NCBI GenBank assembly: GCA_002269645.1
Contig: NIVC01000392.1
Span: 1-64,000 of the forward strand
From: Macrostomum lignano
Lineage: Eukaryota
DNA: 64,000 nt
Reading direction: 5' to 3'
A model generated the notes under the pieces. That model ran no database searches. It had not been told where the DNA came from and saw only the letters and a list, made by a program, of their open reading frames with translations. A program made the translations under genes and the position numbers. Positions 27,790-61,738 of the stretch are shown piece by piece. Numbering within the stretch: position 1 is the stretch's first letter; each line of letters opens with the position of its first letter.

Positions 27790-27810
27790 TGGTGGCAGTG
27801 GAAAGGGATT
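27790..27810 (+). promoter_or_regulatory. Primer-binding site, tRNA-Leu-like (TGGTGGCAGTGGAAAGGGATT)
   Basis: 3 nt after the LTR terminal CA; resembles the common tRNA-Leu PBS TGGTGGCAGCGGTGGGATT. Confidence 0.7.
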
Positions 27811-28837: not shown

Positions 28838-28844
28838 GGGAAAC
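28838..28844 (+). promoter_or_regulatory. -1 ribosomal frameshift heptamer G GGA AAC (Gypsy 2 gag/pol)
   Basis: Gag reads CAG GGA AAC TGA (stop 28845-28847); the -1 frame is open into the protease ORF at 28853. Confidence 0.75.
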
Positions 28845-35438: not shown

Positions 35439-37019
35439 CAGGCGGGCCACCTGTATTACAGGATCCTCCTACGCATTGAGGTATGTTGGATGGGAGACAT
35501 TCTCGGCTGGACTAACAAATGTGGACTACTAGAGGAGTTTAATATGAACTAATACAAGTGACCTTAATAAACATCTAATACCATTATTTGCGATGTAATT
35601 CTGTTTTGCTACAAATTACCTTAAATTTTCACAAAATTATTACCTTTTCTATTACTTAGCCGTGTGTGTCTATCTATTAATAACTTAGCTTAACCTCCTG
35701 CTTATTTATGCACTACTATTCATGGCATTTGCTTGCATTGAGGTTAATTGCTCAGTTTTTAGGTTATGCTACTTATAACATTGCTCATCCAATTACTACT
35801 GTTTAGCTTTGTGTTTTTACTTACTCCTTCATACTCCTTTGCTTACTACTTCACAATTGTTTAATCCTCTCTATATTGCTTTTATCCATTATAACTGCTT
35901 GAACTTTGCATTCATATTTAATCTACGACTGTCACTTTTATGTGCACTTATTTCAATCGTGCTTTTATTTTAGCTCCATTATTATTCACCATATGTTGCA
36001 CATTCTAGTTAGACGCGCGTTATAGACTACCCACAGTGATGAATAGAATAATTTTCTCACTTTTTATTTTTCTTCCATTCGAAAATTATATTTAGGGAAG
36101 CCAGATGATATAGGTCTAAAGTTGAATTGCTGCCTTTTTCTATAGAAACACAAGCTGTTGAAACCCGCGGATTTTGAACCCAGGGAATTCCAATCCCCGG
36201 AACTACTTTTGCATGTATTCTGAAATCTAAGGCCATACACAAACAAAAACTTGTTAATAGTTAGTAGGATAGAGGTAGACATAAAATGGACACATTTGTG
36301 TAAAATTAGGATTTGAAGCAAACATTGATATTGTTGGCTGGGGTACTTCACAGAATGTCAGGCGATGTCTGTCTGACTCTAAAACATGTATTGGCAAACT
36401 CTGGCCTCTCCGGTCCCTATGTCCCTTGGATCCTTTAAAATTTCTATCGTCTCTTCTGTTTCCTCTCTTCTCTCTCTCGTCCCTCGTCCCTCCTCTCTCT
36501 TCTCTCCTCTCTCCTCTCTTCTCTCATATCTTCCCTCATCTCTCTTCTCTTTCATCTCTCTTATCTCTTGTCTCTTCTCTCTACTCTTTCCTCTCTCTCT
36601 CCTCTCTACTTTTCGTTTTCTCTCTCCTCTCCTCTCTCCTATCTTCTTTCGTATCTTCCCTTATCTCTCTTCTCTTTCATATCTCTTATCTCATCTCTTC
36701 CCTTTTCTTTTCTCTCTCCTCTCCTCTCTCCTCTCTACTTTTTCGTTTTCTCTCTTCTCCTCTCTCTCCTCTATACCCCTCTTCTCTTGTCTCTTCCTTC
36801 TCCTCTCTATTCTTTTCTCTTTTCTCTTAACTCTCTCCTCTCTCCTCTTTCCCCTCTCTCCTCTCTCTCCCCTCTTCTCTCGTCTCTTCTCTTACCTCTT
36901 TCCTCTCATCTCTTTTCTTGTTTTATCTCTTCTCTCTCCTTTCGTCACTCATCTCTTCCCTCACCTCTCTTCTCTCTTGTCTGCGTTTTTATCTCTCCTT
37001 TTTCTTCTTTTATCTCTTC

Positions 37020-37101
<82 letters not shown>

Positions 37102-38946
37102 TCTCTTCTCCTCTCTACTCTCTCCCCTCTTTATTCTCCTATTTCCTGTTCTCTCTCCCTGTCTCTCCTCTCTCCTCTAGTCTCTGTAATCTCTTCTCTC
37201 TTATCTCTCCTCTGTTCTCTCTACTCTCCCATCTCTCATCTGTTCACCTTCATCTCTGCTCTCTTATCTGTCATCTTTACTCTTTAATACATTTTCTCAC
37301 TTATCTCCTCTGTACTCTTCTCTTTCACCTCTTCTGACTCCTCTCTTTCCTTACTCCTCTCTTCTTTTCTCTTCCCTCTTCTATACTCTCTCTCCTCTAT
37401 TATCTTCTCTCGTCACTCTGCACTCTCCTCTCACCTTTTTCATCTCTCATCTTTACTCTCTCATCTCTCCTTTCATTTGTCTTATCTCTATAATCTCATC
37501 TCTCCTTTCTCCCCTCTTCTTACACCCCTCTCTCATCTCTATCTCTTCTCTTCTCACTCCTCTCTCCCCCTCTTATCTCCTCTTTTCTCTATCCTTTCTA
37601 CTCTCTCTTCTCCTCTTGACCCTCTGTCATCTTCTTTCTGCTCTCTCATCTCTACTTTCTTCTCACTCTTTTTTACTCTCCTCTCATTGATCCTCTGTCT
37701 CATCTCTCCCCTCTTCTCACCTTTACTCTTTCCTCTCCCTCCTTTCTCCCCTCCTCTCACTTTTTCCTCCCTTCTTCTCTGCTCTCTCCTCACCACTTGT
37801 CTCTCCTCTTATCTTCCATGTTTTCTCTTATCCCCGTCTCGCCTCTCCTCTCTTCTAATAGTCTATTCCTTCCTTTCCACTCTCATCTGGCCCGCACATA
37901 AGCTGGATTCTTTATCTGGCTTTTGAAGTAAAAGTCTGCCGATCCCTGCTTCGAAAGCCAGTTTGTGGGACGTACTACTCTCATGGCTGTTCTCATGCTT
38001 TGATCACGTCATCTTTCTTGCCAATTCGCAGCCCTGAAAGGAATTTGTGTATTTTCAGCTCCACTGCAGTCTGCATCAGTCTAACAACCAAGGAAATACG
38101 CATTTCTTAGGCCATTTAAATTTCAAAGTACTTTTTAGAGAAACTTAAAATTTCCATGGTGTGCCTAATTTAGTAGGGTTGTATTTCATTGCATTGCATT
38201 GCCTTTTCATAAATATTTCGCTTTTACAAACCATTCAGGATTGCCTCGATTTGCCAATTGCCATCCACTGTTAAACTGCTGCAGAGTTTGCCTATACAGA
38301 GGGGAGGGAGTGGTTAGAATTTCTCACTGAACTGTTATGGCTAAACGTAGCCTCTCCACTCTTGGGGTGCAAGATTGTGAGAAGGCTATAAATAAAGTTA
38401 TTCCAAAACACTGTACATTTGCTATGTACATTGAGCCCTATCGCCTGACCCTTTGTCTAGGCGTGGGGAATGAGTGAGTGTGATTTAGTGGCGCAAACAA
38501 CAGAAAAAGCAGACAAACTTCACATGCTTACAGTTTCCATCCTGATTGAGATACAGAGTTGAGACTTTACATTTAGATAGAGAATGAGTCAAAGAATTGT
38601 GTAAAATTTGAAGTCAATCGCTTTACGTGGAGCAAACTTATGGCAGCCAAAAGTTAGTCATTTTAAAACCCTATTTAAACCCTTTGCCCAGATCAGGAAA
38701 GAGAGGCAGGCGAGCGGAGGTTGGGGCAGTTGCTATACTGAAAAAAACAGCCTAGCTTTAAAAGTGCAGAGCACTGCTCAGGATTTATTTTGAGACTCAA
38801 AATTTTACACGATTGTGTCAAAATAGTTGGAGATTGTTCGTGTCAAATTTGAAGAGGATTGGTAGAAGTGGAGCGTCGCTATGGAGGATTTAGTGAAAAA
38901 AATTGCCCATTTTGAGCAGTTTTTTGCACTTTTAGATATGAAGACT

Positions 38947-39500
38947 ACTACGTAATGTGCAGAAAGTTGTCGGTTTTGGAGGTGAGGTGGGTGTCAGAGC
39001 CAATGCAAATTCAACGCCTATCTAAATACATTAGACCGATTCTAATTGGTCCAGAGTCATTATGTGAGACATTTATACTCTCATGTAAAATCTATACATG
39101 TACACTGTATCGTACAGCAGCGACGACCAGTACAATATAGTACGCATAATTAGCGCTTCGCAGTTGTTGTACGTAGAAACGCGCGCCCCCATCCCCACAC
39201 AATGCAGCATTGGTGTACGCAGAATTAACTGTCCATATTAACTGTCCATATATACCAAAAATTGGCAGAATTAGAGCGCCTACCCCATAACTGTCCATAT
39301 TATTACTTGTCCATATTTACTGTCCATCCCAAAATTGGTGTACGCGCAGAATTTTAGCGTCCGCCCACCCCATAACTGTCCATATTATTACTTGTCCATA
39401 TTTACTGTCCATATATACACCCAAAATTGGTGTACGCCCAGAATTGTCTGTGACCCCCACAAAATTGGCGGCCCCACGCGGAGGCATGATGAGTCAGTCA
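38947..39500 (+). repeat. Left TIR (554 bp)
   Basis: Reverse complement of 48593-49146; at least two mismatches seen (38978/49115, 39438/48655). Confidence 0.95.
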
Positions 39501-39682
39501 ACCGCTGTAAATCGCTGCTGCAGCCTGTTATATCCACTCCTTCCATACTTCACTCTCTAGAATTCAGCCCTCGTCGACACTCCGAGACAATTACGTCATC
39601 CACCAACCCCCTCTCCCAAATAAGTTTTCAAAAGGCGTATATATATTTACACAAAAAGCCGGCCGAGCTTTGATACGTATAT

Positions 39683-40312
39683 TTATTTAGCATACACAAT
39701 TGGGTGACGACCCAAAACATTTGAATAATAGCGAGCAGGAGCATTTTGCAAACAGTTTACAATCAAGTATGAGTAGGGGTCGCGAGTAGCATCCTCATAC
39801 GTTTTGACAAAACTTTTTGGATTAGTGGGGACCAGCTGCCTTGCAATATGAGACACTGTGCTGGCATCCCGTACATTGCGGAATAAAACAAGGTAGTTCG
39901 AATTGAGCGACTGAGTTCGGTGCTCCTTACCCTTTGCAAACAGGTTTTGCACAAGATACCAAAGTCGGAACCCCACGTGGGAGACTTTGCGCGTGAAAAA
40001 AGTTGTAAAAGCGCCACTCTTTTCCATGGCATGCATTTGGTCGTCGACGACAAGCAGAATATTTGGTTCAGGGACATATTGTTCAGGATCAAATGTACAC
40101 GAACGAAAATTTACAGGGTACGGCAATTCAAACAGTTCAGGATCCGGATAGTGGCCAAACCAGTCTACGCGAATCGGCTTCGGATCTTGAAAAAATTCTT
40201 GTCTCAATAGGTTTTTCACAAGTGTGGTCTTGCCGCTTTGAGCCACCCCAGCAAAAATTGCCGACGTTTTGGGGGCAAATTTTAAAGAGTCGGGGTCTAT
40301 TGTTTGATACAT
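39683..40312 (-). CDS. A32/FtsK-like genome packaging ATPase (209 aa from ATG 40312)
   Basis: Walker A GVAQSGKT, Walker B LLVVDD, plus YLVQNLF and R..SLNSNYLVLFRNVRD typical of Maverick/poxvirus A32 ATPases. Confidence 0.92.
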   Translation of the reverse strand: MYQTIDPDSLKFAPKTSAIFAGVAQSGKTTLVKNLLRQEFFQDPKPIRVDWFGHYPDPELFELPYPVNFRSCTFDPEQYVPEPNILLVVDDQMHAMEKSGAFTTFFTRKVSHVGFRLWYLVQNLFAKGKEHRTQSLNSNYLVLFRNVRDASTVSHIARQLVPTNPKSFVKTYEDATRDPYSYLIVNCLQNAPARYYSNVLGRHPIVYAK

Positions 40313-40335
40313 TTTGATAGGCAGCCCAATCATAT

Positions 40336-40792
40336 TTATGGATGATGCTGCTTTATTTGTAGACAGTGATTCTGCACCATCAAGTCGTTCTCGTAAAGAT
40401 TTGTGCTATAACAGTCGCGCAATATTTTTTCAATTGACAGACCCTCCAGAAAGTGTTTTTCAGCCACAAATATTACATGAGCCCCGCAGGTCACACTCAG
40501 CGGATGCTGTACAGGATGCCGGTTCATGGCCACCTCCACAGGGACATACTTTGCGATCCACAACTTTAATAAATCTGGCACAGGATCGATACACAAGGGG
40601 TCAAAAAATGTCACGCTCTCATCGGCATGAAGACAAATTAAAGCCCAGTGAGTGCCTGGTAGATTGCCAGTGTCAAAGTTAATCACGTATGCAGCAGGAT
40701 AAACAGGTTGCGGAATCCTGTCAACTGGTGTTACTCGAACAGGGACAGGTAGTATTAGACCTTAGACGTTCTAATATATCTAGACTATTCAT
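40336..40792 (-). CDS. Adenain-like cysteine protease (~151 aa; one extra base near 40741)
   Basis: YVINFD...PGTHW (His), FFDP (Asp), Q...SVTCG (Gln/Cys). The N-terminus MNSLDILERLRSNTTCP joins VRVTPVDRIP if one base is removed. Confidence 0.88.
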
Positions 40793-40842
40793 ATCGGCAT
40801 GAATATGGCCGTTATTCGAGAATAAAAAAGAGATGTTTGTTT

Positions 40843-42125
40843 CTACACGTAGTCTAGAATAACCTGACGACCGCGAGTGATTTGCACAGTATTGTCAAAG
40901 TAGCCAAACACCAACACGTTGATTCCTGCGGCCAAGGCAGCAGAAAACTTTATTTGTAGCGTCAGATTCCCTCGCTCGCGAGGCATGCTATGCCCGCCCA
41001 GCTCCATGTCGGGCATGAGATTCCAGGCGAAGAAGCAGTAGCCAGCTCCATAGTCGGAATATGATACGTCAATATCCAGGTCCCGATTCATCTTTCCTAG
41101 GCTTTTTAGTAGCATGGCATACTCGCGAGCATAGTTATGAACACCGAATCGAGGAGTAAACGGTTGTCCACACAGACTGACTCCGTCCTTATACAGAGCG
41201 ACACTGTCTGCCCAAACGGTTCAAAATTAAACGGGTTATGTGTAGCCACACCGTTGTATGCGCCGCTGTTCACCATGCCAACAACCACTAGTTTAGGCTT
41301 TTGTTCAGGAAATATATTATTGATTGACATGTCCCGAACACCGCCAGCCACTGAAGTATTGTGCACAACAAGTCGCTCAATCGGATAGATTGCATTCTGT
41401 TTGCCTAGTTGTTCTTCAATCTCCAATGCCAATTGGGGGTTTGCCTTGACGCGGCGCACATGTAGTTTGGCACTCTCGAGTACTAGCCGCGCATCAACCC
41501 CGTCCGCGTGGTTTTCCAGAACGAAGCCGGAATTGTGCATGGTCAGCGTAATTACCATATCAGTGTATGGCAGTAGCATTCGGTCGTTGGTAACAAAAAA
41601 GTCTAAACTAAGAGGTCCATAAAGGTGAAAGGTGCGTGAGTTTGCCGCCATCGCCTTGCGGGCTACAAAGCCAGGATTTCCAACCACAGCCATTTGACCT
41701 CCAGCGTCCTTTGCGTAGCCCATCATTCTCAGTTGATTAGTTTTTGAATCGTGTCCGTAATTCAAACACGTGAGAATATAGGCCTTGTAAGCGTGGTTGT
41801 TATTGCTCGACTCTACGTGTGTCCCGTTGATTGTCAACGTGACGTTTTTAAACATGCTTTCAAGGACGTAATTGACCGGCGCAACATTCGAATCAGCAGC
41901 AAGATTTGTACCATTAGACTGCTTAACGCGGGCCTTAATCTCGAGGTCAATGTCGTTAAGATCGATAAACGTCTCACCACCAACAATCCTAAATTCGACC
42001 ACGCTGGCATTTTCAACACTGGCAACAGGGTGAACTTCTTCAGTGGTGGCGCTAATTGCAGCAATTTGGTGTGCGCGAGGAGCAAAAAGCTCGAATTCCG
42101 ACTTTGTACACAGGCACTCAGTCAT
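40843..42125 (-). CDS. Major capsid protein, Maverick double jelly-roll type (~427 aa; 1-nt deficit at 41211-41213)
   Basis: C.KSEFELF, YNG...HNPFNF and C-terminal GY.FFAWNL.PD...GNL.LQIKF..AL...INVLV.GYFDN..I...R.V..D motifs. Adding one G to the GGG run restores FGADSVALYKDG..GQPFTP and joins ORFs 41106-42125 and 40843-41115. Confidence 0.92.
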
Positions 42126-42168
42126 TTTTCATTCAACAGCGGCTTAGTGTGGTGCTCTAATAGACAGA

Positions 42169-42537
42169 TCAGTTATTGGCACGGGTTTTTTTATTTATAG
42201 AGTCGAAAATATCAGAATGCTGCAGTCTTTTTCTCGTTTTTTTGTTAGTCATCTTTCTTCGTCTTTGTCTGCCGCTACCTCGTTGTGCGACTGTGTCCTT
42301 GAAAGCATCTTTAGCTGCCTGGACAGAGTTACGCAATGCCGCTTCTTTCAAGTTCCCGCCTTGATCGAGTGTGTCGCTAACTGTTGTAGCTAGGGCTCGT
42401 GTTCCGTGGCGAAGAATATTTTTGCCAAAACTCTTTAAAATTGGCAGGGCAAATCGGGCAATGCTGCCAAACAGGCCGTTGCCGCGCTGTGCACCGGAAA
42501 ATACCGGTAAAGCTCCTCCGATCAAGATTGAAGGCAT
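42169..42537 (-). CDS. Small basic virion/core protein of Mavericks (PZ-like)
   Basis: F.G.QRG.GLFG.I.RFALP.LK..GK pattern, QRGSG followed by an R/K-rich tail, and C-terminal DIF; the usual layout of this conserved Maverick ORF. Confidence 0.75.
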   Translation of the reverse strand: MPSILIGGALPVFSGAQRGNGLFGSIARFALPILKSFGKNILRHGTRALATTVSDTLDQGGNLKEAALRNSVQAAKDAFKDTVAQRGSGRQRRRKMTNKKTRKRLQHSDIFDSINKKTRANN

Positions 42538-42581
42538 ATTGTCGATCAGTTGCTACCTTTTATTCGTGAAAACTTCTTTAT

Positions 42582-43735
42582 TTATAGCTTAATTTCACGA
42601 ATGTTGATCGATAAAACAGTTTTGCCTCGAAGAATCCGATCCATTAACTTGCCCATATCGTCACAGATTTGCACCTCAATGGTTTTGAATGGGTGTTTCA
42701 CCAACGGTAAGTAGGATGGATTGACAAACTCGTAGTACTCTCGTTCGCCGTATACCTTTTCATTCAAAGGAATTGCCCCAAGCAGGGGGACTTTGACGTC
42801 TCCAACAATGGCAGAGTCGACAATATTTGAATAGATGTACATAGTTTGTACACCATTTGTTAAATCGATTGGTCGTTTAGCGGTCTTTGGAGTTTCATTG
42901 AAAACATCTTCGCGAAAGCCGAGAATGGCAGCAAGCTCTCCAATGTCGAATAAAATGTTTTCAATGGGTTTGTACTCACACCGGTTCAGAAAAGGGTTGT
43001 AGTGGAATGCATCCACTCTCGTCGCTGGACTTATTGGGAGCTTTGAAACGACGCTCCAAAGCGCTCCATTAACATAATTTAAGAGCTCGTCAGGCGTGCG
43101 GTAGAATCCTTTAGCAATCCGCAGTGACGTTCTAGAAGGCCAGACACTCTTTTCAAACGTTAGAGTCATCGGACTCTCTATGGAGGAGGAGGACTCCAAT
43201 TCTATAGCGAATACTAACGAATTTCTTGGGTTTAATAAAAAAGTCGTTACTTCGATATTTGATTTATTTCCAGCGTCATCAACCTTTTTAAACATGCTAC
43301 GCACATTACTGGACAGCCTAATGTTCGCACCATACCATGATTTGTTCACAATTGAAATTTGGCCTTCCTGTGAACGCTCAATGCAAATCATCGCATTATC
43401 GTCTTGCTCATATTTTAGATCGGCGATGATTGCATCAACCACTTCGTTGGCTGTTGATAGCCCCGCGGCGAGAGAAACCGACGCAAACTGTTTATACGTG
43501 GAGGCGGGTTTTTCTCTCACCTCAATGTCAATCACTTCATCCTCGGAGCGTTGGTCAGGACATCAACCATTCGATTATCGGGGACGGTTTTGAATTCTTT
43601 ACAAAAGTAGATCCGTTCGATGCAGACTTCATGATTCGGAAAGTGGAGGGTGTCGGGCAAATTAATGCTATAATGTGCCGAATTATTCTCAGGATAGTGC
43701 TCAACGCACGCATTGCTAGGTAGGAATAGATGCAT
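42582..43735 (-). CDS. Minor capsid (penton) protein (~384 aa; 1-nt deficit between ~43535 and 43565)
   Basis: N-terminal LFLPSN...YPENN..Y.I.LP..L; C-terminal LAAILGF, DL..G...MYIYSNIV...VGD..VPLL and F.NP.YLPL...F.TI.V.I.DD.G. ORFs 43532-43735 and 42582-43535 are offset by one base. Confidence 0.88.
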
Positions 43736-43769
43736 TGTAATATACTACACGTTTCGAGTGTATGTGTGT

Positions 43770-44843
43770 TCATCCTTGTCTTATATTTATAACTTCCTCA
43801 ACTGGTACAAATGCATTGAACGACTCGGGATAGCCGCGCCAACTAACGAAATGATGAGCGACACCATTGATGATGACATTGCGACGCAGAATTTTGTCTA
43901 TAACAAAGCGGTCTGGTCGAACCGTCTTTGAAAGTTCATTATAGTAGAATCGACCCTCGATTTGTTCTCCAGATAGGTCGGAAATGCGATAAAAATGAGG
44001 CGGTCCCGGGCATACTTGAGACACAACGTAAACTTCTTCGCTGTACATATCGTATGCTTCCTTGTCAAAGGCTCGACGAGATTTTGAAATTCTGACAAAG
44101 TCCCCTTTTTGGTAAACTGGTTCATCATATTCAGGATCCTTGTAGAGCTTTTCCCACAATTCTTTTTGATTGTGCAGACCGACACTCGAAGGTTTCATAT
44201 CAATAGTAGAGTGTACTGTGTTGTTGTAACTTTTAACCAATATTGGCAAATAGTCGATCCAACGCCACGTGTTTTTATGCTCAAAGTAGCGAGCTAAACG
44301 TTTTCGGAGAGTCCTAATCAGCCTTTCAGCCATATTTGCCTTGTATACAGAGTTTGTACTGTACATTTTGATATTATGGGCTTTCAGTAAGTTCTGCATG
44401 CGATTGTTATAAAACTCGGTACCTCGATCAACGTGTAGATATAAAGGCTTAATGGGGAAGTCTTTGATCATGCTTTCAAAAGCCTTTGGAGTGTCGCTTT
44501 TCAATTTTATTGACTGACAAAAAGCCAATTTACTAAGCACGTCAATTGCAACTAGAATATATCGATGACCATCATTCCATTGTTCGTATCGCGACATGTC
44601 CATCAAATCCGCTTGCACAGTTTCCATGAAGCCTCCCGACATTACTTTTCCGGTTCGGAATTTTCTTTTAACCCTCTTGTGCCGGGTGTAGCTCGATTGG
44701 GTCTTCAGCCATTCGTCGGTTTGGCGTCTCGTCAGGGAGGGGACCAGCCGTTTGGCCTCCTGATATACACGGGCAGCATTTGTAAAAGCGGCGTCCCCCT
44801 GTTCGTACACTCTCCGAAGAGCGGTTTTCACCCTCATTCGCAA
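43770..44843 (-). CDS. Retroviral-like (rve) integrase with C-terminal chromodomain, intact
   Basis: DDE motifs QADLMDM, HVDRGTEFYN and KANMAERLIRTL; chromodomain IDKIL...FVSWRGYPESFNAFVP. Confidence 0.95.
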   Translation of the reverse strand: MRMRVKTALRRVYEQGDAAFTNAARVYQEAKRLVPSLTRRQTDEWLKTQSSYTRHKRVKRKFRTGKVMSGGFMETVQADLMDMSRYEQWNDGHRYILVAIDVLSKLAFCQSIKLKSDTPKAFESMIKDFPIKPLYLHVDRGTEFYNNRMQNLLKAHNIKMYSTNSVYKANMAERLIRTLRKRLARYFEHKNTWRWIDYLPILVKSYNNTVHSTIDMKPSSVGLHNQKELWEKLYKDPEYDEPVYQKGDFVRISKSRRAFDKEAYDMYSEEVYVVSQVCPGPPHFYRISDLSGEQIEGRFYYNELSKTVRPDRFVIDKILRRNVIINGVAHHFVSWRGYPESFNAFVPVEEVINIRQG

Positions 44844-44974
44844 CTAGATTCGATGCACAGCATGAGTAATTACACTTGAACTCCACAGACGGTTTGTCTG
44901 AGCAAAGCTTTGAAGTTACAGCTGCGGCACCCATGATCCAAAAACAGATTATATATCATGAAAATGATTTCTAT

Positions 44975-45649
44975 TTATAGTTTTTTTAACGTCTCGTATT
45001 TTACTGCTGGTTTCTGCCGCCTCTTTGGTTCGCGAAGTTGGTATGAAGCATGCCTGTAGGCATCGCTGCCACGATCTTCATATTTTTTAATTTCATTCAG
45101 GCCACTGGCTTGGTCTTTGTGGAAGTCGTTGTAGAAATCATTAGTTCCAATTGCTTGCTCGACTAAAAAATCGTCTCGATCCGGATCCGTGCCGACTTCT
45201 TTTTTCACACTGACTTCTTCTTGTTGGCGTCGTCCTAGTAGAGCTTTTGCAATATCTGCCTCTTCGGCCAGGGCCCAAAAAGCGGTACTATATTTTGGGC
45301 TTGGGCGGTCGCGCCTTTCATTCGATGTAATCTCCTTCAATAGATCGAAAATATTGCTTCCTGGCCAGGTTTTTCCATCAAATACAATTTCCCACGACTT
45401 GTTGTACTCCAAATTTGGGTATCTTTCTGTCAGCATGTCCCAAACACGTTGTTGTCGTTCAGGAAAACGATTACTCTTCTTTTGCTTGATCTGACTTAGT
45501 TTATTTTGGAGTTGAGTGTTGTATTCAATGAGTTTTTCATATTCTGTTTTGGATGCAATTTCTCGGGGTGCGCCTTGACTTAGTCTATTAAATTCTTCTT
45601 CTGGTACAACAACGTATTTATTCATTTTAGCGACCAAGTAGTCCGCCAA
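44975..45649 (-). CDS. Maverick-associated protein of unknown function (224 aa)
   Basis: KYVVVPEEEF..L N-terminus and WEIVFDGK.WPGSNIFDLL resemble a small ORF recurrent in animal Mavericks (from memory; not searched). Confidence 0.6.
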   Translation of the reverse strand: MADYLVAKMNKYVVVPEEEFNRLSQGAPREIASKTEYEKLIEYNTQLQNKLSQIKQKKSNRFPERQQRVWDMLTERYPNLEYNKSWEIVFDGKTWPGSNIFDLLKEITSNERRDRPSPKYSTAFWALAEEADIAKALLGRRQQEEVSVKKEVGTDPDRDDFLVEQAIGTNDFYNDFHKDQASGLNEIKKYEDRGSDAYRHASYQLREPKRRQKPAVKYETLKKL

Positions 45650-45983
45650 ACAGGCTTGATATTAGCGGTGCAGCAACAGATGCAAGGATGGGTAGAAAGC
45701 CACCGACTTGAGGATTCGAGAGAAGCATATTCTTCTTCCTATTTATAGACAATTTTGTGTCTGCCAATTCACGCAACGATCTTCTGTATCGCTTTAATCG
45801 CAGATACTGTTTCGGAGAAAGATCGATATTTCCCCGGAGCACGTTGTGACTCAATTCACAGAGACAATGAATCAGTTCCTTGCCTGCACCTCGAATAATG
45901 GCCCGCCGAAGAGTGGGACGGGCTTTGGCGAGCTCTGCGAGCTCGCCGCGACAAGAACATAGTCTGGAGATTCCGTTTGTCAT
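45627..45983 (-). CDS. Maverick PW-like protein with C-terminal hydrophobic/amphipathic peptide (118 aa from ATG 45983)
   Basis: LIHCLCELSHNVLRGNI.L....LKRYRRSLR.L....S...KK..L...QVGGFLPIL matches this conserved Maverick/adintovirus ORF. A TATA motif lies 54 nt upstream of ATG 45983. Confidence 0.8.
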   Translation of the reverse strand: MTNGISRLCSCRGELAELAKARPTLRRAIIRGAGKELIHCLCELSHNVLRGNIDLSPKQYLRLKRYRRSLRELADTKLSINRKKNMLLSNPQVGGFLPILASVAAPLISSLFGGLLGR

Positions 45984-46123
45984 TTTGTTTAGCAAAAAGA
46001 TGTTGGTTGCAGTGCACTGCAATTTATGCACAATATATTTATAGACAATTTCATAGCAGCTTGTACGTACATACAAATTCGGTACAGTGGTAAAGCAGTA
46101 AAGTTACGCAACAGCTACATGGA

Positions 46124-46477
46124 TTAGACATGCAAAACGCTAGTCACATGATCGTACATTTGACAGAGCTCTTTAAAGTTTCGTATTCCAAGGAAAACAA
46201 GGCGGCCATTCTTTCCGCATAATAAACATTTAGCATTGCGAAATGGAGACTTTATTACTATTCCATTGAAAACTTCACACTCCCACTTCACCCAGCGGGA
46301 CCCGGAGTATGCAATTTGGAAAAAGTTTGGCCATCTGTCTACTTCAGCGCGGTAAGTACTAGTGGTAACAACAACAGAAATTGGTTTACATTGAGGAAAA
46401 AGACGCAAAACTTGGTTGATGAGCGACAACCGAATACAATTGCAGACAAAGAACGCTGAAAAAAGTTGATTGTACAT
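46124..46477 (-). CDS. Hypothetical protein (117 aa)
   Basis: Fills the gap between neighbours on the coding strand; no motif recognised. An in-frame upstream ATG is followed by TGA five codons later. Confidence 0.4.
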   Translation of the reverse strand: MYNQLFSAFFVCNCIRLSLINQVLRLFPQCKPISVVVTTSTYRAEVDRWPNFFQIAYSGSRWVKWECEVFNGIVIKSPFRNAKCLLCGKNGRLVFLGIRNFKELCQMYDHVTSVLHV

Positions 46478-46580
46478 TTTCCTATTCGCAAATTGATAAG
46501 AGCTCTTGGTCTGCGAAATGTCCGTGCGCTCGCCCAGTCCAAGTCAGGCATGCGGCTCCATTTCGCGCAAAACACTCGGT

Positions 46581-47333
46581 TCACACACTCGACGTTCTGC
46601 AAGTAGATTTTTCGGCAGTTTTTACTTTCGTATCCTTCTTGGGGGCTTTCGACCGCTTCTTTGATTCGTTGGCTGCTACTAGTTTCGATTGATGCTGTCG
46701 CTTTCTGGCCTGATTTTTAGGCACCTTTGGCTGCTTCTCCTTGACAAGCTTTGGTGGTTTCTTTGCTTTCTTGCTTACTTTCTTGACGCCTACCTTGATT
46801 TTTGGAGGTGGCGTCCAATAGCAACGATCGAATGCCTGTTTGGCTTCTTCGACAAACTGTAGCTGTTGAATTTTTGGCATTGCGGTCAAAACAGCGTCTC
46901 GAATCACGGCCGTGTCGAGAGTAAACAGAATCCTGTAGTAGCCGCTCTTGTTTTTGTAATCCTCTACAGGCAGTCCGTTTTGGTCGTACATTTTAAAGTC
47001 GTGAGCCAGCCCAAACGCTGCACTGTCACCTCCAAACGCTGGGTTGTAGCCCAGCAGAGCTAGACTTTCGCTGGAAAGGTGCTCCGCCACAGTGTTGAAA
47101 GTGTAGGGTATGCAGCTTTCAATGTGTTTTTGTGCAATGATGATGAATTCGCGACCTTCGTTGTCAGTACGCACGCCCTTGACGATCAAAACAGGGACCG
47201 CATTGGCCAAGTAGAGAGGTCCCTGTTCGTCATATTCAATGTCAAACGTTTCAACCCCGTTGAAGCTCGGACCTCGCGGTTTGAGTGCCAGCAGCTCTCG
47301 CTTGACGCAGTTGAAGTCTTGCACTGTCTCCAT
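46581..47333 (-). CDS. Hypothetical protein (250 aa), candidate OB-fold ssDNA-binding protein with Lys-rich tail
   Basis: Intact ORF with TATATAAG at 47394-47401. Segment FKMYDQNG...GYYRILF...PKIQQLQFV recalls viral OB-fold SSBs (inference). Confidence 0.6.
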   Translation of the reverse strand: METVQDFNCVKRELLALKPRGPSFNGVETFDIEYDEQGPLYLANAVPVLIVKGVRTDNEGREFIIIAQKHIESCIPYTFNTVAEHLSSESLALLGYNPAFGGDSAAFGLAHDFKMYDQNGLPVEDYKNKSGYYRILFTLDTAVIRDAVLTAMPKIQQLQFVEEAKQAFDRCYWTPPPKIKVGVKKVSKKAKKPPKLVKEKQPKVPKNQARKRQHQSKLVAANESKKRSKAPKKDTKVKTAEKSTCRTSSV

Positions 47334-47450
47334 GTCTCTTGTCTGTTTAAAAAATTTGCAGGTACGGGCGCTTGCAGATGCTCCGGGCTGGTGCTTATAT
47401 ACCCGAGAGTCTCAATAAGTTTTTGTTTTAATTACACGATAACGAGCTTT

Positions 47451-47963
47451 TTACAGAGTTGTCGTTATCGAGGATTCCGGAAAAAATGAACTTTTGTTCC
47501 TATTTTCGGGTGCTGGCGTTGGAGGTGTGCTGAAATCCTTGCTCCAAGTTGCTGGTAGTTCAAGCTTTGGCGGCCTGTTCCTCTTGTGCTTTGGCAGCCA
47601 AAAATTCCAAATCTTTTGTTGCTCCTCCCACGACGGATTATACAGATCTTGATGGTTCCGAAAACGTATTTTTTGGCGATGCTCTTCACTTAGTATCGGA
47701 GCCAGTAATCTCTCCATTCGTGCTAAATCAGCTTTGAATCTCATTTTGTCCCGTAGTTGCTCATTTATCCTGGCTGCTGCGTAGTCTTGGCTGTCGTAGG
47801 GGCCTTGATCAATTTCCTCGACCTTGGCATTGAAGGTGACTAATCGCTCGGAAATCGGTTTGCTGTGGCAAATGCACAACCAGTCAGCAGATTTTTTCAA
47901 GGCCTCATATTCGTCTTTTTCCTCGTTCGATAATAGGGGGTAGTCTCTGGAAATCCAGCTCAT
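47451..47963 (-). CDS. Hypothetical protein (170 aa)
   Basis: Intact ORF on the coding strand, with TATATAAG at 48083-48090; no family recognised. Confidence 0.6.
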   Translation of the reverse strand: MSWISRDYPLLSNEEKDEYEALKKSADWLCICHSKPISERLVTFNAKVEEIDQGPYDSQDYAAARINEQLRDKMRFKADLARMERLLAPILSEEHRQKIRFRNHQDLYNPSWEEQQKIWNFWLPKHKRNRPPKLELPATWSKDFSTPPTPAPENRNKSSFFPESSITTTL

Positions 47964-48140
47964 TTCTTGTCAAGCACTTGCTGCGTTGTTCGCACTAGTG
48001 GTGGGGATTTATTCGAGCTTGAAAAACTGCCGAGAATCCGAGAAAAATTTGCAGGTACGGGTGCTTGGTGCCCCGGGTTGGTGCTTATATACCCGAGAGT
48101 CTCAATAAGTTTTTGTTTTAATTACATGTTAACGAGCTTT

Positions 48141-48323
48141 TTACGGTGTTGTCGTTATCGAGGATTCCAGAAAAAAAGAGACTTTTGTACCTATTTTCGG
48201 TGTTGGCGTTGGAGGTGTGTTGAAATCCTTGCTCAAAGTTGTTGGCAGTTCATGCTTTGTCGATCTGATCCTCTTGTGCTTTGGCAACCAAAAATTGCTT
48301 GTCAAACATTGCGTTTTCCACAT
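48141..48323 (-). pseudogene. Truncated paralogue of the 3' end of ORF 47451-47963
   Basis: NFWLPKHKRIRSTKHELPTTLSKDFNTPPTP versus NFWLPKHKRNRPPKLELPATWSKDFSTPPTP. Confidence 0.6.
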
Positions 48324-48592
48324 GATTGGGGTGTTAATTGAACTTGGTGAATTTAGATAAACGGCCGAGAATCCAAATTTTCTTATTTATAGTTTGCTGT
48401 CTGAACAAAGTTGGTTTGGCATCTTGTTAAACGAGAATATTTCATGCATAGAAGTTTGTGTTTTCAGACCTTGATGACGTGTCTGGCTATAAAGTTAGCA
48501 TTGTGGCTCGACCGGGTTGTTGCGTAACACTGCTGCAGGTAGCTATAGCGGCCAGCGCAGGGCAGAGGGGTGGACAGCGGCGATTTACTGGC

Positions 48593-49146
48593 TGACTGAC
48601 TCATCATGCCTCCGCGTGGGGCCGCCAATTTTGTGGGGGTCACAGACAATTCTGTGCGTACACCAATTTTGGGTGTATATATGGACAGTAAATATGGACA
48701 AGTAATAATATGGACAGTTATGGGGTGGGCGGACGCTAAAATTCTGCGCGTACACCAATTTTGGGATGGACAGTAAATATGGACAAGTAATAATATGGAC
48801 AGTTATGGGGTAGGCGCTCTAATTCTGCCAATTTTTGGTATATATGGACAGTTAATATGGACAGTTAATTCTGCGTACACCAATGCTGCATTGTGTGGGG
48901 ATGGGGGCGCGCGTTTCTACGTACAACAACTGCGAAGCGCTAATTATGCGTACTATATTGTACTGGTCGTCGCTGCTGTACGATACAGTGTACATGTATA
49001 GATTTTACATGAGAGTATAAATGTCTCACATAATGACTCTGGACCAATTAGAATCGGTCTAATGTATTTAGATAGGCGTTGAATTTGCATTGGCTCTGAC
49101 ACCCACCTCACCTCTAAAACCGACAACTTTCTGCACATTACGTAGT
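48593..49146 (-). repeat. Right TIR (554 bp)
   Basis: Mirror of 38947-39500; the ORF track shows identical mirrored translations. Confidence 0.95.
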
Positions 49147-49914
49147 AAGACTCAAATTCAGGAAATTTAAGGATAGCCTAAGACATTCTCTGTAGTGAGT
49201 TTAAGGTGGGTGCAAAAATTTGGTATAATTTGGTCGGGTGGTTTGGGAGTCCATTGCGAACAAAATTGTCCACAGACACACAGAGTTTTGATTTTTATAT
49301 GTATAGATGAAACTTCAGAATTTGTTTAAATGCACCGTAGCCCCCCACCCCAATCTTACTATAAATATATGCACATTTTGTGCCCAGAGAGGCAACCGAT
49401 ACCAACACCGACCAAAGTTTTAGACCTTTTGGTTCATAGGCGAATTGCCTATAAAATTGAAGAAGTGTTCCAAGCCTTCCTTCATTTGCTTTGAGCTAAG
49501 AGCAAATGCTCATTGGACTAGAGGTAGAAATTACCAAAAGCAAGAGACAAATAGTCAAAGAGCCAATAGCGTACTAGCAAAGAGCAGAGGCATAACCAGC
49601 CAATAGAAAGGGGAGAAATATCCAAATAAACTGTTTGAACTGAACAAACCAATGGGAAGTTGTATATGACAAAAGCAAATCCTTAAGAGGAAATTGAAAT
49701 TCACCAGGCAACCTCAATCCATTGAAGGGCGCTGCTTTAGGACTTAGTCACTCCCCTCTTCCCTAGCTAATCAGTGTCTTGCCGCTCGGGCACTGCGCGC
49801 TACCAGGGCAGTCCATACTTACGCAAAGGCCTATAATCTCAACTCCGTGACATCGTATTTTAATAGCTTATAACAATTCTAAAGGCTAATTTTGTAGAAT
49901 TCTAGAATTTTAAC

Positions 49915-50313
49915 TAGAGGTCGGACAAGCAGAAAATTTTGGTCGGGCGTGAAATTTCGTGAAATTTTCAAAGTCGGGCGTGATTGTGATCGTGATTTTA
50001 TATTTGCATACACATATTTTGAGCCTGTAAGTTACAAGTGTTGAAAATAACAAAACAAGAAAATAAATATTTATAAATTGATAATAGCTACTCGGTAATG
50101 CTGTCAAGTCAACAAATTTAAAATTTATTACTCTTTTACACATTTGTGTTCACATATTTTGGTAAACCAAGTAGAAAAGTCATACTTCTAATGAAAATGT
50201 AATAAAGCGAAATTCACGACTGTCGTGAACGGGTTTCAAGGAAATAACGATCGTGAAAAATGGTCGTGAATTCACGAAATCGAGATCACGATTGTGATCA
50301 CGTCCGACCCCTA
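49915..50313. mobile_element. hAT-like MITE (399 bp) inside the Gypsy 2 3' LTR
   Basis: TIR TAGAGGTCGGAC / GTCCGACCCCTA; 8-bp TSD ATTTTAAC (49907-49914, 50314-50321); absent from the 5' LTR. Confidence 0.92.
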
Positions 50314-50364
50314 ATTTTAACAAATTTCATAATAGTACAACTTGGTGGCAATTGGCAATTGTAG

Positions 50365-50724
50365 CAAGGTTTTTTTTTGTGCGCAGAGTGTGCGTATGCA
50401 CCCTAAATTTTAAAATTGCACCCTGAAATTAAAAAAGTAGGTGCAGTCTTTTAACCATTTTTCTTTAAAGGCTTAACCATGCTTAAGCTTTTTTTCATGC
50501 ACTGCCTTAAAATATAATACAAAATCACTCTTTAAATCCTATTAAGTCATATAGGCGATATAGGCCTAGCCTATGGCTATAGCCTTATGTAAGATATTAA
50601 AATATACATTTCCAGTTGTCTGAAACAAGACTCAAGAGAAATTGCACTCTGAGCCTTAAAATTGCACCTTGAAATTTGGCACAATGTGCGATTTTGCACC
50701 TTGTCTCTGGCGAAAAAAACCCAG
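50365..50724. mobile_element. hAT-like MITE (360 bp) inside the Gypsy 2 3' LTR
   Basis: Imperfect TIR CAAGGTTTTTTTT / AAAAAAAACCCAG; 8-bp TSD AATTGTAG (50357-50364, 50725-50732). Confidence 0.85.
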
Positions 50725-51114
50725 AATTGTAGGATTACCAACTTAGCTTAAATACCCCTCCAACAAATATATTATCTATCTTATATAATAGGCCTATAGA
50801 TAGTATATTAGGTGTAAGACCAAGATGGCCACACACCAAGATGGCCACAGCTGGGGTGGGGGTCACGGAAAATGACAGCTGGTTTACTATTGGATAGCTT
50901 CGGGTGGGGAGATGTGAGGTTGCAATGGGGGGGTTTAGACAGGCAGTCAAAATTTTATTAGTTTATTGCAGGGCTAAAGACAAAAATGGTTACGAGTCTT
51001 AACTTCCTACTTATAGTAGGCCCCTAAGAGGTGTAAACATATTTCGTATTAAACAAATCTCTTCTTCATAGAGATTGAAGAGTTGATCCTAGACATGTAC
51101 CTGCCCAGTTTCAT

Positions 51115-51324
51115 TTGCAGGATGTGACAGTTCCTGAGACAAACGGGCGACACTTCGTCTTCATGACGACAACTCAGCGAGAACTATTATCAACCCGACG
51201 AATCTTGAAGTGCGACGGAACTTTTAGCATTGTCAAGGCACCTTTCAAACAGCTTTACAGTGTACACGGCGCGATTCGCTTTGATGGGCAGGAAAGGCTG
51301 GTGCCACTACTGACATGTCCGTAG
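51115..51324 (+). pseudogene. Mutator/MULE transposase fragment
   Basis: CDGTFSIVKAPFKQLYSVH matches the MULE DGTF...F.QLY.IH motif around the first catalytic Asp. Confidence 0.8.
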
Positions 51325-52075
51325 CCGCCTTCCAGCCGCACCGAAATTTTAAATGAGTGCCCCAGGTGTAATTTTTATAAAAATAAATCACATATGCTCT
51401 TAATTGATTACCCCAAAACATGTTTCGCATGGTCGATGCTGTTTCTATGAAAATCTGGCAGTGAAAGTTGGCTTTAGGGCGGCTGAAGGGCGGCTGGAAG
51501 GGGGCTGGAGAATTGCTCTGTATTGGCGCAGTATAATTGTGCCCCAAATGGAAAAAAATTAGATGCAAGTCTTATCTTTAATATGCACAATAAACTGTGG
51601 TTCATTGGCTTTTATTTCTTAGAGTAGTGTGACCTTTAGTTTGAAATTCAGCATTCCAATAGGTAAAAGCGTGCCCCAACCATTTTCTTGACTAGCGGCT
51701 AATGCCCCAATGCGGTAAAAAGAAGCAGGGTCAAAATTTTACTGTATAAGTAAATTTCTGTACATGCCCCACAATTTCCAACTGAGTGGCGAAGTGAAAT
51801 AATTCTTGATTGTCACTCAGACACCAGTCATTACGACTTACAGTCGAGATTACGACTTTGCAATCGTAAAAAATTAAATTCTAACTTGTTGCAAAGCTTG
51901 TCTACTAATAGACTAATGGACCGATTCATAAATTACTATCAATGTGACAATGCCCATGTTGATGGATATGTAATTGTATGTGTCCTTTAGAAATATTAAA
52001 AACTGGCATGACAATTGTCACTTTAAGATTGTAATCAAATCACTCAATATATTCTATAATCTATATATATGCCTA

Positions 52076-52774
52076 CAAGCTGTTGAAACCCGCGGATTTT
52101 GAACCCGGGAAACTCCAATCCCCGGAACTATTTTTGCATGTATTGAGATTAAACTCAAACAAAAACATTTATTAGTTGGGATAGAGTTAAACATGAAATA
52201 GAGTACATTCGAGTAAAATTAGGATTTGAGGCAAACATTGATATTGTTGGCTGGGGTGCTGCGCAGAATGTCAGGAAAACTCTGGCCTCTACCTCTGCCT
52301 CTCCCTATGTCCCTTGCATTCTTTGAAACTTCCATCTTCTCTTCTGTTTCCTCACTTCTCTCTTGTCTCTTGTCTCTTCTCTCTCCTCTCATCTCTTCTT
52401 TCTTCTCTCCTCTGTCCCCTCTTCTTTTGTCTCTTCCCTCTATTCGTTTCTCTCTCCTTTCCTCTCTTCTCTCTCGTCTCTGCTCTCCCATCTCTCCTTT
52501 CTCCTCTTTTATCTCTTCTCATTTCTCTCTGCTCTCTCCTCTCTCTTCTCTCTCTGCTCTCTACTCTCTCTTCCCTCTCCTCTCCTCTCTTCTCACTCAT
52601 TACATTACCCTCTCTCAACACTTCCCTCATCTCTCCTCTCTCCTTTCTCTTCTCTTCTCTCCACTCTCTCCTCTCATCTCTTCTATCGTTTCTTTCCTCA
52701 CCTCTCTTCTCTCTCATCTTTGCTCTATTATCTTTCCTTTCTCTTCTTTTATCTTTTCTCTCTTATCTCTTCTC

Positions 52775-52858
<84 letters not shown>

Positions 52859-53532
52859 TCTCTGCTCTCTCCTGTCTCATCTCTCTTCTCCTCTCTAATC
52901 TCTTCCCTCTTTCCTCTCCTCTCTCGTCCTTCCCCTGTTTCCCCTGCTTCTCGATTCTCTCCCTCCCCTCCTCTCTCCTCACTCACTTCTCTCTCCCTTT
53001 GTCTCACCTCTCATCTCTCATCTCTTATTTCTTATCTCTCCTCTTTTCTCTGTCATCTGTCATCTTTACTCTCTTATACTCGTATGCTCTCTCACCTCTC
53101 TCCTTTGTACTATTCTCTTTCCCCTCTTTTGACTCCTCTCTTTCCTTTCTCCTTTCTCCTTTCTTCTCTTCTCTCCCCTCTTCTATACTCTCTCCCTCTC
53201 TTGTCTTCTCTCTTTTCTCTCCACTCTCCTCTCTCCTCTCATATATCGTCTGTTCACTCTCATCTGTCTCACCCCCTCTCTCTTCTGTCATCTCTACTCT
53301 CCTCTCTCCTGTGTACTCTTCTCTTTCCCCTCTTCTGACTCCCCTCTTTCCTTACTCCTCTCTTCTCTTGCCTCTTCTTTACTCTCTCCACTCTATTCTC
53401 TTCTCTCGTCTCTCGTCTCTCTGCACTCAGCTCTCTCCTCCTTCATCTCTCATCTCTCCTTTTCTCTCTTATCTCTACAATCTAATTTCTTTCCTCTCTC
53501 CTCCTCTTCCCTTTACTCTATCTCTCCTTTCT

Positions 53533-53626
<94 letters not shown>

Positions 53627-55162
53627 TTTATCTCCTCTCTTCTCACTCCTCTCTCCCCCTCTTATCTCCTCTCCTCGATCCTTTCTAATCTCTCCTCTCG
53701 ATCCTCTCCTCTCTACTCTCCTCTCTCATCGATCCTGTCTTATCTCTCCCCTCTTCTCTCTCCCTCTTCTCACCTCTACTCTTTCCTCTCTCTTCTCTCT
53801 CCCCCCTCTCGCTTTTTCCTCGCATATTCTCTGCTCTCTCCTCACCCCCTCGTATCTCTTGTTATCTTCTATTATTTCTCTTATTCCCCTCTCGCCCCTC
53901 CTTCTCTTTCTAATAGTCTATTCCTTCTCCTTTCCACTCTCATCTGGCCCGCAGCCATGAGCTGGATTCTTTATCTGGCCTTTGAGGTAAAAATCTGCCG
54001 ATCCCTGCTTCGAAAGCCAGTTTTTGGGACGTAGTTGTTATCATTTCTCATGCTTTAATCACGTCATCTTTCTGGCCAATTAGTAGCCCTGAGAGGAATC
54101 TCCAGCTCCACGAACACCACCACAGTCTGCAGCAGTCTAACAACCAAGGACACACGCATTTCTTAGGAGATATTTAAATTTTAAAGTACCTTATGCGAAA
54201 CTTAATGTTAAAAGTTTCATGGTGTAACTAATTTAGTAGGATTGCATCGTAATCAGTTATTTATTAATTTTTCGCTATTTTTACAAATACGCTCGTACAA
54301 ACCATCCCGCTGCTCGCATCGCCTTGGTTTGCCGCTGCTGCAGACTGTCCATACAGAGGACAGTGGTTTGAATCTCTCACTAAACTGTCAAGGCTAAACG
54401 TAGCCTCTCCACGCGCGGGGTGCAGAGAAGGCTATTAAAAAGTTATTCCAAAACACTGTACATTTGCTATGTACATTCAGCCCTATCGCCTGACCCTTCG
54501 TCTGGGCTGGGGGAATGAGTGAGTGAGTGGCACAAACAACAGAAAAAGCAGACAAACATCACATGCTTACAGTTTCTTTTTCGGTTGAGTTACAGAGTTG
54601 AAACTTTACATTTAGATAGAGAATGAGTCAATGAAGAATTGTGTCAAGTTTGAAGTCAATCGCTTTACGTGGAGCAAACTTATGGCAGCTGAAAGTTAGT
54701 CAATTTTGAAACCCTTTTACACATCTGGGCCCAGATCGGTATCGGGAAAGAGAGGCAGGCGGGCGGAGGTTGGGGTGGTTGCTACGCTGAAAAAAACAGC
54801 CTAACTTTAAAAGTGCACAGCACCGCTCAGGATTAACTTTGAGACTCAAAAGTTTACATGATTGTGCCAAAATAGTTTAAGATTATCTGTGTCAAATTTG
54901 AAGAGAATCGGTAGAAGTGGAGCGGCGCTATGGAGGATTAAGTGAAAAAATCGCGCATTTTGAGCAGTTTTTTGTACTTTTAGGTAGGAAGACTTGAGTC
55001 TAGGAAATTTAAAGGTAGCCTAAGACACTCTCCGTAGTAAGTTTAGGGTGGGTGTAAAGTTTGGTGTCATTTGGTTGAGCAGTTTGGGAGTCCATAGCGA
55101 TCAAAATTGTCCACACACACACACACACACACACACAGAGTTTTGATTTTTATATGTAGAGA
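52076..55162 (-). mobile_element. Non-autonomous Helitron copy B (3087 bp)
   Basis: 5'-TCTCTAC...hairpin (52089-52109)...CAACAGCTTG-3'; host A at 52075; CT-rich interior. Confidence 0.88.

Positions 55163-58109: not shown

Positions 58110-61738
<3,629 letters not shown>

What the first reader, a model, noticed from the sequence alone, without database searches (positions are those of the whole stretch)
38947..49146. Compact Maverick/Polinton endogenous virus with virion and integration genes but no DNA polymerase: candidate helper-dependent (satellite) element
Seen in sequence: a cleanly bounded 10,200-bp element with 554-bp near-identical TIRs and a 6-bp TSD. It encodes integrase+chromodomain, MCP, penton, adenain, packaging ATPase, PZ- and PW-like proteins and four other ORFs, all on the minus strand. 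The ORFs tile the interior almost completely; only about 200 bp separate the first promoter motif (48385-48392) from the right TIR, so there is no room for a pPolB gene. Established: pPolB is a defining Maverick/Polinton gene, and such elements are usually larger. Inference: this is either a deletion derivative or a stable family that packages and integrates itself but borrows a polymerase from a helper Maverick or from the host. Near-identical TIRs and a perfect TSD are consistent with recent mobilisation in this form.
Basis: partly seen in the sequence, partly recalled or inferred. Interest (0 to 1): 0.88.

Follow-up and report, generated by a model that had tools for sequence, protein, structure and literature searches.

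The report
Two-part Maverick virus in a flatworm
This 10-kb inserted element carries the capsid and integrase genes of a Maverick virus but no polymerase, and the same animal genome holds separate, similar-sized elements with matching ends that carry the polymerase but no detectable capsid or integrase genes, so the two likely work together as a split, two-segment virus genome.

Summary
The element is real: 557-bp inverted repeats, a 6-bp target duplication confirmed by empty sites, no polymerase. It is not a one-off deletion. None of 51 capsid-family loci read carries pPolB, and a second family (about 75% nucleotide identity) has the same layout. The genome also holds the reciprocal half: 8.5-10.8-kb elements, inserted separately with 6-bp duplications, encoding an intron-split pPolB (splice joints seen in public runs) and no detectable capsid, ATPase, protease or integrase. 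The first 31 bases are hypervariable and pair the halves: capsid-1 with polymerase-1, capsid-2 with polymerase-2 (nearest other class is the partner for 58 of 58 ends). Complete Mavericks here have different ends. Both halves are under purifying selection. Non-coding palindromic satellites swap ends only within a pair. Best reading: a bipartite Maverick whose segments complement each other in trans, present as two diverged pairs. Virions and complementation are inferred, not shown. This copy's MCP, penton and protease frames are broken. Ten literature searches listed no segmented Maverick.

The parts
38941..38946 (+). left target-site duplication AAGACT
   Evidence: empty paralogous sites
38947..39503 (+). 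left terminal inverted repeat, 557 bp
38947..38977 (+). terminal 31 nt (ACTAC...TTTT); nt 6-27 vary between copies and come from a pool shared with the polymerase-1 elements
39683..40333 (-). A32/FtsK-type packaging ATPase, 216 aa
   Evidence: 30-41% to ATPases of complete Mavericks
40336..40761 (-). adenain-like cysteine protease; start broken in this copy (149 aa in 11 of 20 copies)
   Evidence: about 30% to Maverick proteases; catalytic motif recalled; no Pfam or PDB hit
40843..42125 (-). double jelly-roll major capsid protein; in two frames in this copy (427 aa in 8 of 20 copies)
42169..42537 (-). small basic ORF, 122 aa, between penton and MCP (PW position; label untested)
42582..43735 (-). 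penton / minor capsid protein; in two frames in this copy (about 384 aa in siblings)
   Evidence: 30% to a complete Maverick ORF; fold not tested
43770..44837 (-). retroviral-type integrase with probable C-terminal chromodomain, 355 aa
44975..45625 (-). ORF 216 aa, conserved in family 2 (53% identity), function unknown
45627..45983 (-). ORF 118 aa, conserved in family 2 (77%), probable virion protein (inference)
46124..46543 (-). ORF about 140 aa, conserved in family 2 (about 76%), shortened in this copy
46581..47333 (-). ORF 250 aa, conserved in family 2 (66%), unannotated
47451..47963 (-). ORF 170 aa, conserved in family 2 (61%), unannotated
48069..48296 (.). 87% duplicate of 47379-47606, including a promoter-like stretch
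48384..48391 (-). first of seven TATAAATA promoter-like motifs; family 2 also has seven, with similar spacing
48590..49146 (-). right terminal inverted repeat
49147..49152 (+). right target-site duplication AAGACT

Best explanation
The element is likely the capsid-and-integrase segment of a bipartite Maverick (polintovirus) whose second segment is a separate element of about 9-10 kb encoding an intron-containing protein-primed polymerase. Shown: two reciprocal gene sets, separate insertions with 6-bp duplications, a shared variable 31-nt end, spliced polymerase joints, purifying selection on both halves, and two diverged pairs. Inferred mechanism: the polymerase segment is transcribed and spliced in the nucleus. 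Its terminal-protein/pPolB would prime at the shared ACTAC ends and copy both segments as free linear DNA, where panhandle repair makes the two ends of a molecule match and template switching shuffles nt 6-27 among segments of one pair. The capsid segment would supply the integrase that inserts either segment, and the capsid, ATPase and protease that package roughly 10-kb molecules, probably one per particle. Non-coding palindromes with the same ends would ride along as satellites.
For: Capsid half: 20 family-1 loci read end to end or nearly; 19 are 8.3-11.0 kb and one is 14.4 kb through an internal inverted duplication; main alignments 96-99% identical. 15 of 19 with both ends read have a perfect 6-bp TSD, at 14 distinct sites. 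Family 2: same gene order, 10.3-10.6 kb, about 75% nt identity. 0 of 51 capsid loci read (of 62 listed at 65% MCP identity or more) encode pPolB. Polymerase half: 16 of 97 loci read; none has INT, MCP, ATPase or protease hits inside the element, while the same search finds them at 27-41% identity in complete Mavericks. 13 of 16 show both ends and a perfect TSD; one sits inside the MCP gene of a complete Maverick. The nearest of 62 MCP loci to any of 97 polymerase loci is 48 kb away. Ends, coding elements only: mean mismatches over nt 6-27 are 8.2 for capsid-1 vs polymerase-1 (within 7.4 and 8.1), 9.6 for capsid-2 vs polymerase-2 (within 9.4 and 8.1) and 14.5-16.7 across pairs; the nearest other class is the partner for 58 of 58 distinct ends. 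Left and right 31-mers are identical in 40 of 52 elements. Four-gamete test positive for 106 of 171 and 126 of 190 site pairs. dN/dS between families is 0.03-0.24 for six capsid-half genes and 0.06-0.13 for polymerase exons; in the other comparisons dS was saturated. GT-AG introns lie at matching positions in both polymerase families; 74-nt and 81-nt skips are each seen in 3 of 4 runs from 3 studies. All eight catalytic or domain motifs checked are present in 5 of 7 polymerase copies, seven of eight in the other two. Satellite interior 1 occurs with capsid-1 or polymerase-1 ends, interior 2 with polymerase-2 or capsid-2 ends.
Against: No virion, free DNA or complementation was observed. Genome searches score only the best candidates (119 of 496 for MCP, 111 of 159 for the polymerase), so a joined parent could be missed or absent from the assembly. 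None of 20 family-1 copies has all eleven ORFs full length in the assembly. Capsid-1 shares nt 28-50 with polymerase-2, not with its proposed partner, which points to common descent or a past partner swap. Two pairs cannot test co-divergence, and the trees are FastTree only, with a long-branch warning for the polymerases. One run with spliced joints is guessed to be DNA. Intron-split capsid or integrase genes in the ORF-poor left arm of polymerase-1 elements are not formally excluded. Environmental relatives gave no genomic context.
Confidence: 0.72

Rival explanations
1. Both halves are defective derivatives of a monopartite 18-20-kb Maverick that is exogenous or missing from the assembly and mobilises them in trans.
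For: Defective Maverick copies are the norm (96% in vertebrates; PMC8097293 passages). Searches are capped. Many copies here are broken.
Against: It needs the same split twice, in two lineages with near-saturated synonymous sites. Each half has its own TIR interior, whereas simple deletion derivatives keep the parent's TIR. No joined locus among 62 MCP and 97 polymerase loci.
Confidence: 0.1
2. The two halves form a purely intracellular two-component transposon system: they complement replication and integration, but particles do not spread them between cells or hosts.
For: No particle evidence. The polymerase has host-style introns, unlike intact vertebrate Mavericks, which fits long nuclear residence.
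Against: MCP and ATPase are the most constrained genes (dN/dS 0.03 and 0.04). Most elements of all classes fall at 7.5-11 kb, as a packaging limit would give. Relatives at 70-87% identity occur in environmental assemblies.
Confidence: 0.1
3. One reading: a one-way satellite that packages and integrates itself and borrows a polymerase from complete Mavericks or the host; the polymerase-only elements are unrelated passengers.
For: Complete pPolB Mavericks of several families are abundant (119 matches).
Against: The three complete Mavericks with both ends read start AGTAGT and lack the end motif. Their polymerases are barely alignable to the ACTAC-type enzyme (best E 0.016). The end pools tie each capsid family to one polymerase-only family.
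Confidence: 0.08

Closest known systems
Mavericks / Polintons / adintoviruses (class Polintoviricetes)
   Same: DJR MCP, penton, protease, A32-type ATPase, rve integrase with chromodomain, TIRs and 6-bp TSD. The order INT-penton-small ORF-MCP-protease matches the second module described in PMC8097293 (passages) and a complete Maverick of this genome.
   Different: pPolB is on a separate element. Each half is about 10 kb, against 12.7-24.6 kb for intact vertebrate elements. The polymerase has spliceosomal introns; none were seen in intact vertebrate Mavericks. The first 31 nt are hypervariable.
Bidnaviruses and Drosophila Vesanto virus
   Same: Segmented genomes with a polinton-related pPolB and matching segment termini (PMC8502044 passages; 10.1101/2020.10.16.342956 passages).
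   Different: They are described as ssDNA viruses with a non-DJR capsid; that they have no integrase is recalled. Here the capsid is DJR and both halves integrate.
Non-autonomous Polintons (Kapitonov and Jurka 2006; recalled, paper not held)
   Same: Keep the TIRs and are mobilised in trans; fits the non-coding palindromic satellites found here.
   Different: As recalled, they depend on a complete element. Here both coding halves are under purifying selection and no complete parent was found.
Transpovirons and cytoplasmic linear plasmids
   Same: Polinton- or PLV-derived replicons that lost the morphogenetic module (PMC11161782 section 10), like the polymerase half.
   Different: That section describes no reciprocal capsid-plus-integrase partner with shared ends.
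Polymerase-less PLVs and meldviruses
   Same: Capsid module without a recognisable pPolB (PMC10120064 passages; PMC11071296 section 16; 10.64898/2026.06.19.733378 passages).
   Different: Those usually carry a helicase or primase instead; this element has no frame over 357 aa.

Membership tests
Maverick/Polinton (Polintoviricetes) | pPolB encoded within the element | tested here: not met
   pPolB is on separate elements with matching ends
Maverick/Polinton (Polintoviricetes) | retroviral-type integrase with chromodomain | tested here: met
   rve E=2.5e-8, chromo weak at E=0.055; many homologs carry both domains
Maverick/Polinton (Polintoviricetes) | double jelly-roll major capsid protein | tested here: met
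   Sibling MCP model and fold search; thousands of homologs
Maverick/Polinton (Polintoviricetes) | packaging ATPase, penton and cysteine protease | tested here: inconclusive
   ATPase supported. Penton and protease only by about 30% matches and position; no Pfam or PDB hit for the protease
Maverick/Polinton (Polintoviricetes) | TIRs and 6-bp TSD | tested here: met
   ends are 5'-ACTAC, not the AG types listed
Segmented (bipartite) virus | essential functions divided over separate molecules | tested here: met
   0 of 51 capsid loci with pPolB; 0 of 16 polymerase elements with capsid or integrase hits
Segmented (bipartite) virus | shared terminal sequences among segments | tested here: met
   58 of 58 ends nearest to the partner class
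Segmented (bipartite) virus | both segments replicated as free DNA and packaged in particles | not testable with these tools
   Only indirect: end homogenisation, selection on MCP, size range
Satellite of a complete helper Maverick | a self-sufficient helper sharing the replication ends exists | tested here: not met
   Complete Mavericks read have AGTAGT ends; no ACTAC-ended element with both modules; searches capped
Bidnaviridae | ssDNA genome with parvovirus-type capsid | tested here: not met
   DJR capsid and integrase; strandedness not tested

The most novel reading that the evidence does not exclude
A segmented, multipartite double-stranded DNA virus with a double jelly-roll capsid: an animal Maverick split into separately packaged, separately integrating capsid and polymerase segments, with a spliced polymerase, recombining 'barcode' ends that define which segments belong together, and its own palindromic satellites. 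Two such species coexist in one genome.
Probability: 0.6. Interest if true: 0.93.

Novelty: new variant of a known kind. Interest (0 to 1): 0.86.

Why it matters
Mavericks are defined by having polymerase and integrase on one molecule, so surveys would score each half as a defective copy. If the reading holds, a DJR-capsid dsDNA virus can be segmented, and polymerase-less or capsid-less 'broken' Mavericks in other animals need re-checking for partners with matching ends. No Maverick virion has been observed (passage in 10.64898/2026.06.19.733378). The closest named proteins, at 95-98% identity, are from the flatworm Macrostomum lignano, a laboratory animal (recalled), so particles, segment ratios and end shuffling can be looked for directly. 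It also gives a dsDNA parallel to the segmented bidnaviruses.

Tried and rejected
One-off deletion: rejected. Assembly collapse: rejected by many distinct insertion sites and the empty sites. Duplicated loci were counted once (C251/C3051, C296/C4045). A weak hit of a polymerase gene model in three capsid copies is only the model's first 50-73 residues, matching a roughly 750-bp insertion with stops, not polymerase coding sequence. The 7.6-kb TIR-sharing elements were first suspected to be the polymerase partner; they are non-coding palindromes. ORF250: no Atlas hit and an unusable model, pLDDT 34. The 165-aa ORF of the polymerase-2 element has only a sub-threshold PC4 match. Expression of the capsid segment: no RNA holder listed; the single read-laying run went to the polymerase segment, so this is untested. 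An intron-less polymerase copy: none among 113 matches, longest open frame 873 aa. A maximum-likelihood polymerase tree did not finish; FastTree was used. Literature: ten searches listed no bipartite Maverick. Subscription journals, Repbase reports and all supplements were not seen and could hold a description.
Full report
Observation. The element spans 38947-49146, with 557-bp TIRs differing at three positions and the duplication AAGACT on both sides. It sits in one unit of a local repeat; three empty units in the window join its flanks with a 6-bp overlap. ORFs cover 86% of the interior and no frame exceeds 357 aa, so no polymerase fits. The integrase is a Pfam match. A sibling's MCP folds as a double jelly roll. 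The ATPase has a homolog carrying PF04665. Protease and penton rest on about 30% matches to complete Mavericks. In this copy MCP, penton, protease and one small ORF are broken; each is full length in several siblings, but none of 20 family-1 copies has all eleven ORFs full length in the assembly.

A stable polymerase-less architecture. A TIR search scored 40 of 84 candidates and returned many pairs about 10 kb apart. Twenty family-1 loci were read end to end or nearly: 19 are 8.3-11.0 kb and colinear with the window, and one is 14.4 kb through an inverted duplication of capsid-half sequence. Fifteen of 19 with both ends read have a perfect TSD, at 14 distinct sites. The MCP search found a second family at about 86% identity: same gene order, 10.3-10.6 kb, about 75% nucleotide identity, no polymerase, and seven TATAAATA motifs as in family 1. 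In all, 51 of the 62 loci with MCP at 65% identity or more were read, wholly or on the side where a polymerase would lie, and none encodes one.

The missing half. The genome has at least 119 pPolB matches. Thirteen were read with flanks. The three complete Mavericks with both ends found are 16.5-17.5 kb and start AGTAGT. Others are shorter, start ACTAC like the window element, and give no INT, MCP, ATPase or protease hit, although the same search detects these genes in the complete ones. These polymerase-only elements form two families, about 62-67% identical in the largest exon, at 97 listed loci. Sixteen were read. Polymerase-2 elements are 8.5-10.1 kb. Polymerase-1 elements are 9.5-10.8 kb, apart from two of 15 kb with insertions. 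Thirteen show both ends and a perfect 6-bp TSD; for three only one end was in the stretch. One interrupts the MCP gene of a complete Maverick, so it was inserted as it is, by an integrase it does not detectably encode. The closest MCP and polymerase loci are 48 kb apart. The enzyme is barely alignable to the complete Mavericks' polymerases and carries a VSR-like motif (motif recalled; VSR-bearing pPolB2 described in 10.1101/2023.08.22.554363, passages).

Introns. Both polymerase families are interrupted at matching motif positions by GT-AG introns with diverged sequence. Contigs of four public runs from four studies were laid on a polymerase-1 copy: the 74-nt and 81-nt introns are each skipped in three runs, and other skips appear at the first and last introns. 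Three runs are guessed RNA and one guessed DNA. No intron-less copy appears among 113 matches in the assembly.

Ends pair the halves. Positions 6-27 differ at about 7 sites between family-1 ends, against 0.7-2 in equal stretches further in, yet left and right ends are identical in 40 of 52 elements. Most site pairs show all four gametes. Among coding elements, capsid-1 and polymerase-1 ends are as close to each other as within class, likewise capsid-2 and polymerase-2, and cross-pair distances are nearly twice as large; all 58 distinct ends have the partner as nearest other class, and one 31-mer is identical in capsid-2 and polymerase-2. Non-coding, largely palindromic elements, mostly 6.4-9.5 kb, give an independent check: one interior occurs with capsid-1 or polymerase-1 ends, the other with polymerase-2 or, once, capsid-2 ends. 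Against a simple picture, capsid-1 shares nt 28-50 with polymerase-2; that motif has 301 matches in the genome, control 0.

Selection and descent. Between families, dN/dS is 0.03-0.24 for six capsid-half genes and 0.06-0.13 for polymerase exons, with the remaining comparisons saturated; within family 1, pN is below pS for all nine genes tested. The two MCPs, the two integrases and the two polymerases are each sister pairs (FastTree), which fits one split ancestor but cannot test co-divergence. Relatives at 70-87% identity exist in environmental assemblies, without context. The closest named polymerases are Macrostomum lignano gene models.

Mechanism. Shown: reciprocal gene content, separate integration, shared ends, splicing, selection. 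Inferred: the polymerase half replicates both from the shared ends by protein priming (domain logic from PMC11161782 section 10); the capsid half integrates and packages both; the common size reflects a packaging limit. I put this at 0.72, an unseen monopartite parent at 0.10, a particle-free pair at 0.10 and a one-way satellite at 0.08.

Comparison. The element fails the Maverick test of carrying pPolB and meets most of the others; the pair together supplies the set. Seen as passages: PMC8097293, PMC8502044, 10.1101/2020.10.16.342956 (92), PMC11131425, 10.1101/2025.04.19.649669 (50), 10.1101/2023.08.22.554363 (61), 10.1101/2022.07.12.499685 (63), PMC11721093, PMC10120064, 10.64898/2026.06.19.733378 (97), PMC12220804. 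Seen as passages plus one section: PMC11161782, PMC11071296. None of what I saw describes a segmented Maverick; ten searches listed none. No supplements were read, and the 2006 Polinton paper and Repbase were not available. The closest precedent for segmentation is the ssDNA bidnaviruses. Unchecked notes from this scan report lone halves and palindromic satellites in other genomes; they are leads, not support.

Verdict. A real and probably undescribed organisation of a known virus group: new variant of a known kind, interest 0.86.

Noticed in passing
G000 loci L051-L054, L140-L156, L281-L286: Abundant non-coding elements, mostly 6.4-9.5 kb and near-perfect palindromes, with ACTAC ends and mostly 6-bp TSDs. 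Two unrelated interiors, one per pair. Could be snap-back satellites or sources of double-stranded RNA.
   Followed up: partly
first 31 nt of all ACTAC-ended elements: Mosaic, block-like hypervariability of nt 6-27 with matching left and right ends; cause unexplained.
   Followed up: partly
L195-L196 (G000:C4072:14540-22994): A polymerase-2 element inserted inside the MCP gene of a complete Maverick.
   Followed up: yes
L294-L295 (G000:C1485:44228-62496): A polymerase-1 element nested inside a palindromic satellite, each with its own TSD.
   Followed up: yes
L032 and L031 (G000:C996); L054, L053, L280, L286, L289: Some elements have flanks that are inverted copies of each other instead of a direct TSD; could be fold-back assembly artefacts or real rearrangements.
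   Followed up: no
L147, L157, L280: ACTAC-ended shells whose interior is largely a mariner-like transposase or LTR retrotransposon sequence (labels recalled from the translations).
   Followed up: no
L100-L138: At least four further, apparently complete Maverick families coexist in this genome; the ends read start AGTAGT.
   Followed up: partly
window 36400-38946 and 49147-61700: The insertion target is a 3-3.6-kb repeat unit with a long CT-rich tract, present in several copies.
   Followed up: partly
window 5466-8369 (-): A 967-aa host frame that looks like a tubulin-tyrosine-ligase-like protein with an N-terminal peptide repeat (recalled from motifs, not searched).
   Followed up: no
window about 21000-33300: Two degraded Ty3/Gypsy-like retrotransposons (protease, RT, integrase frames; recalled from motifs).
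   Followed up: no
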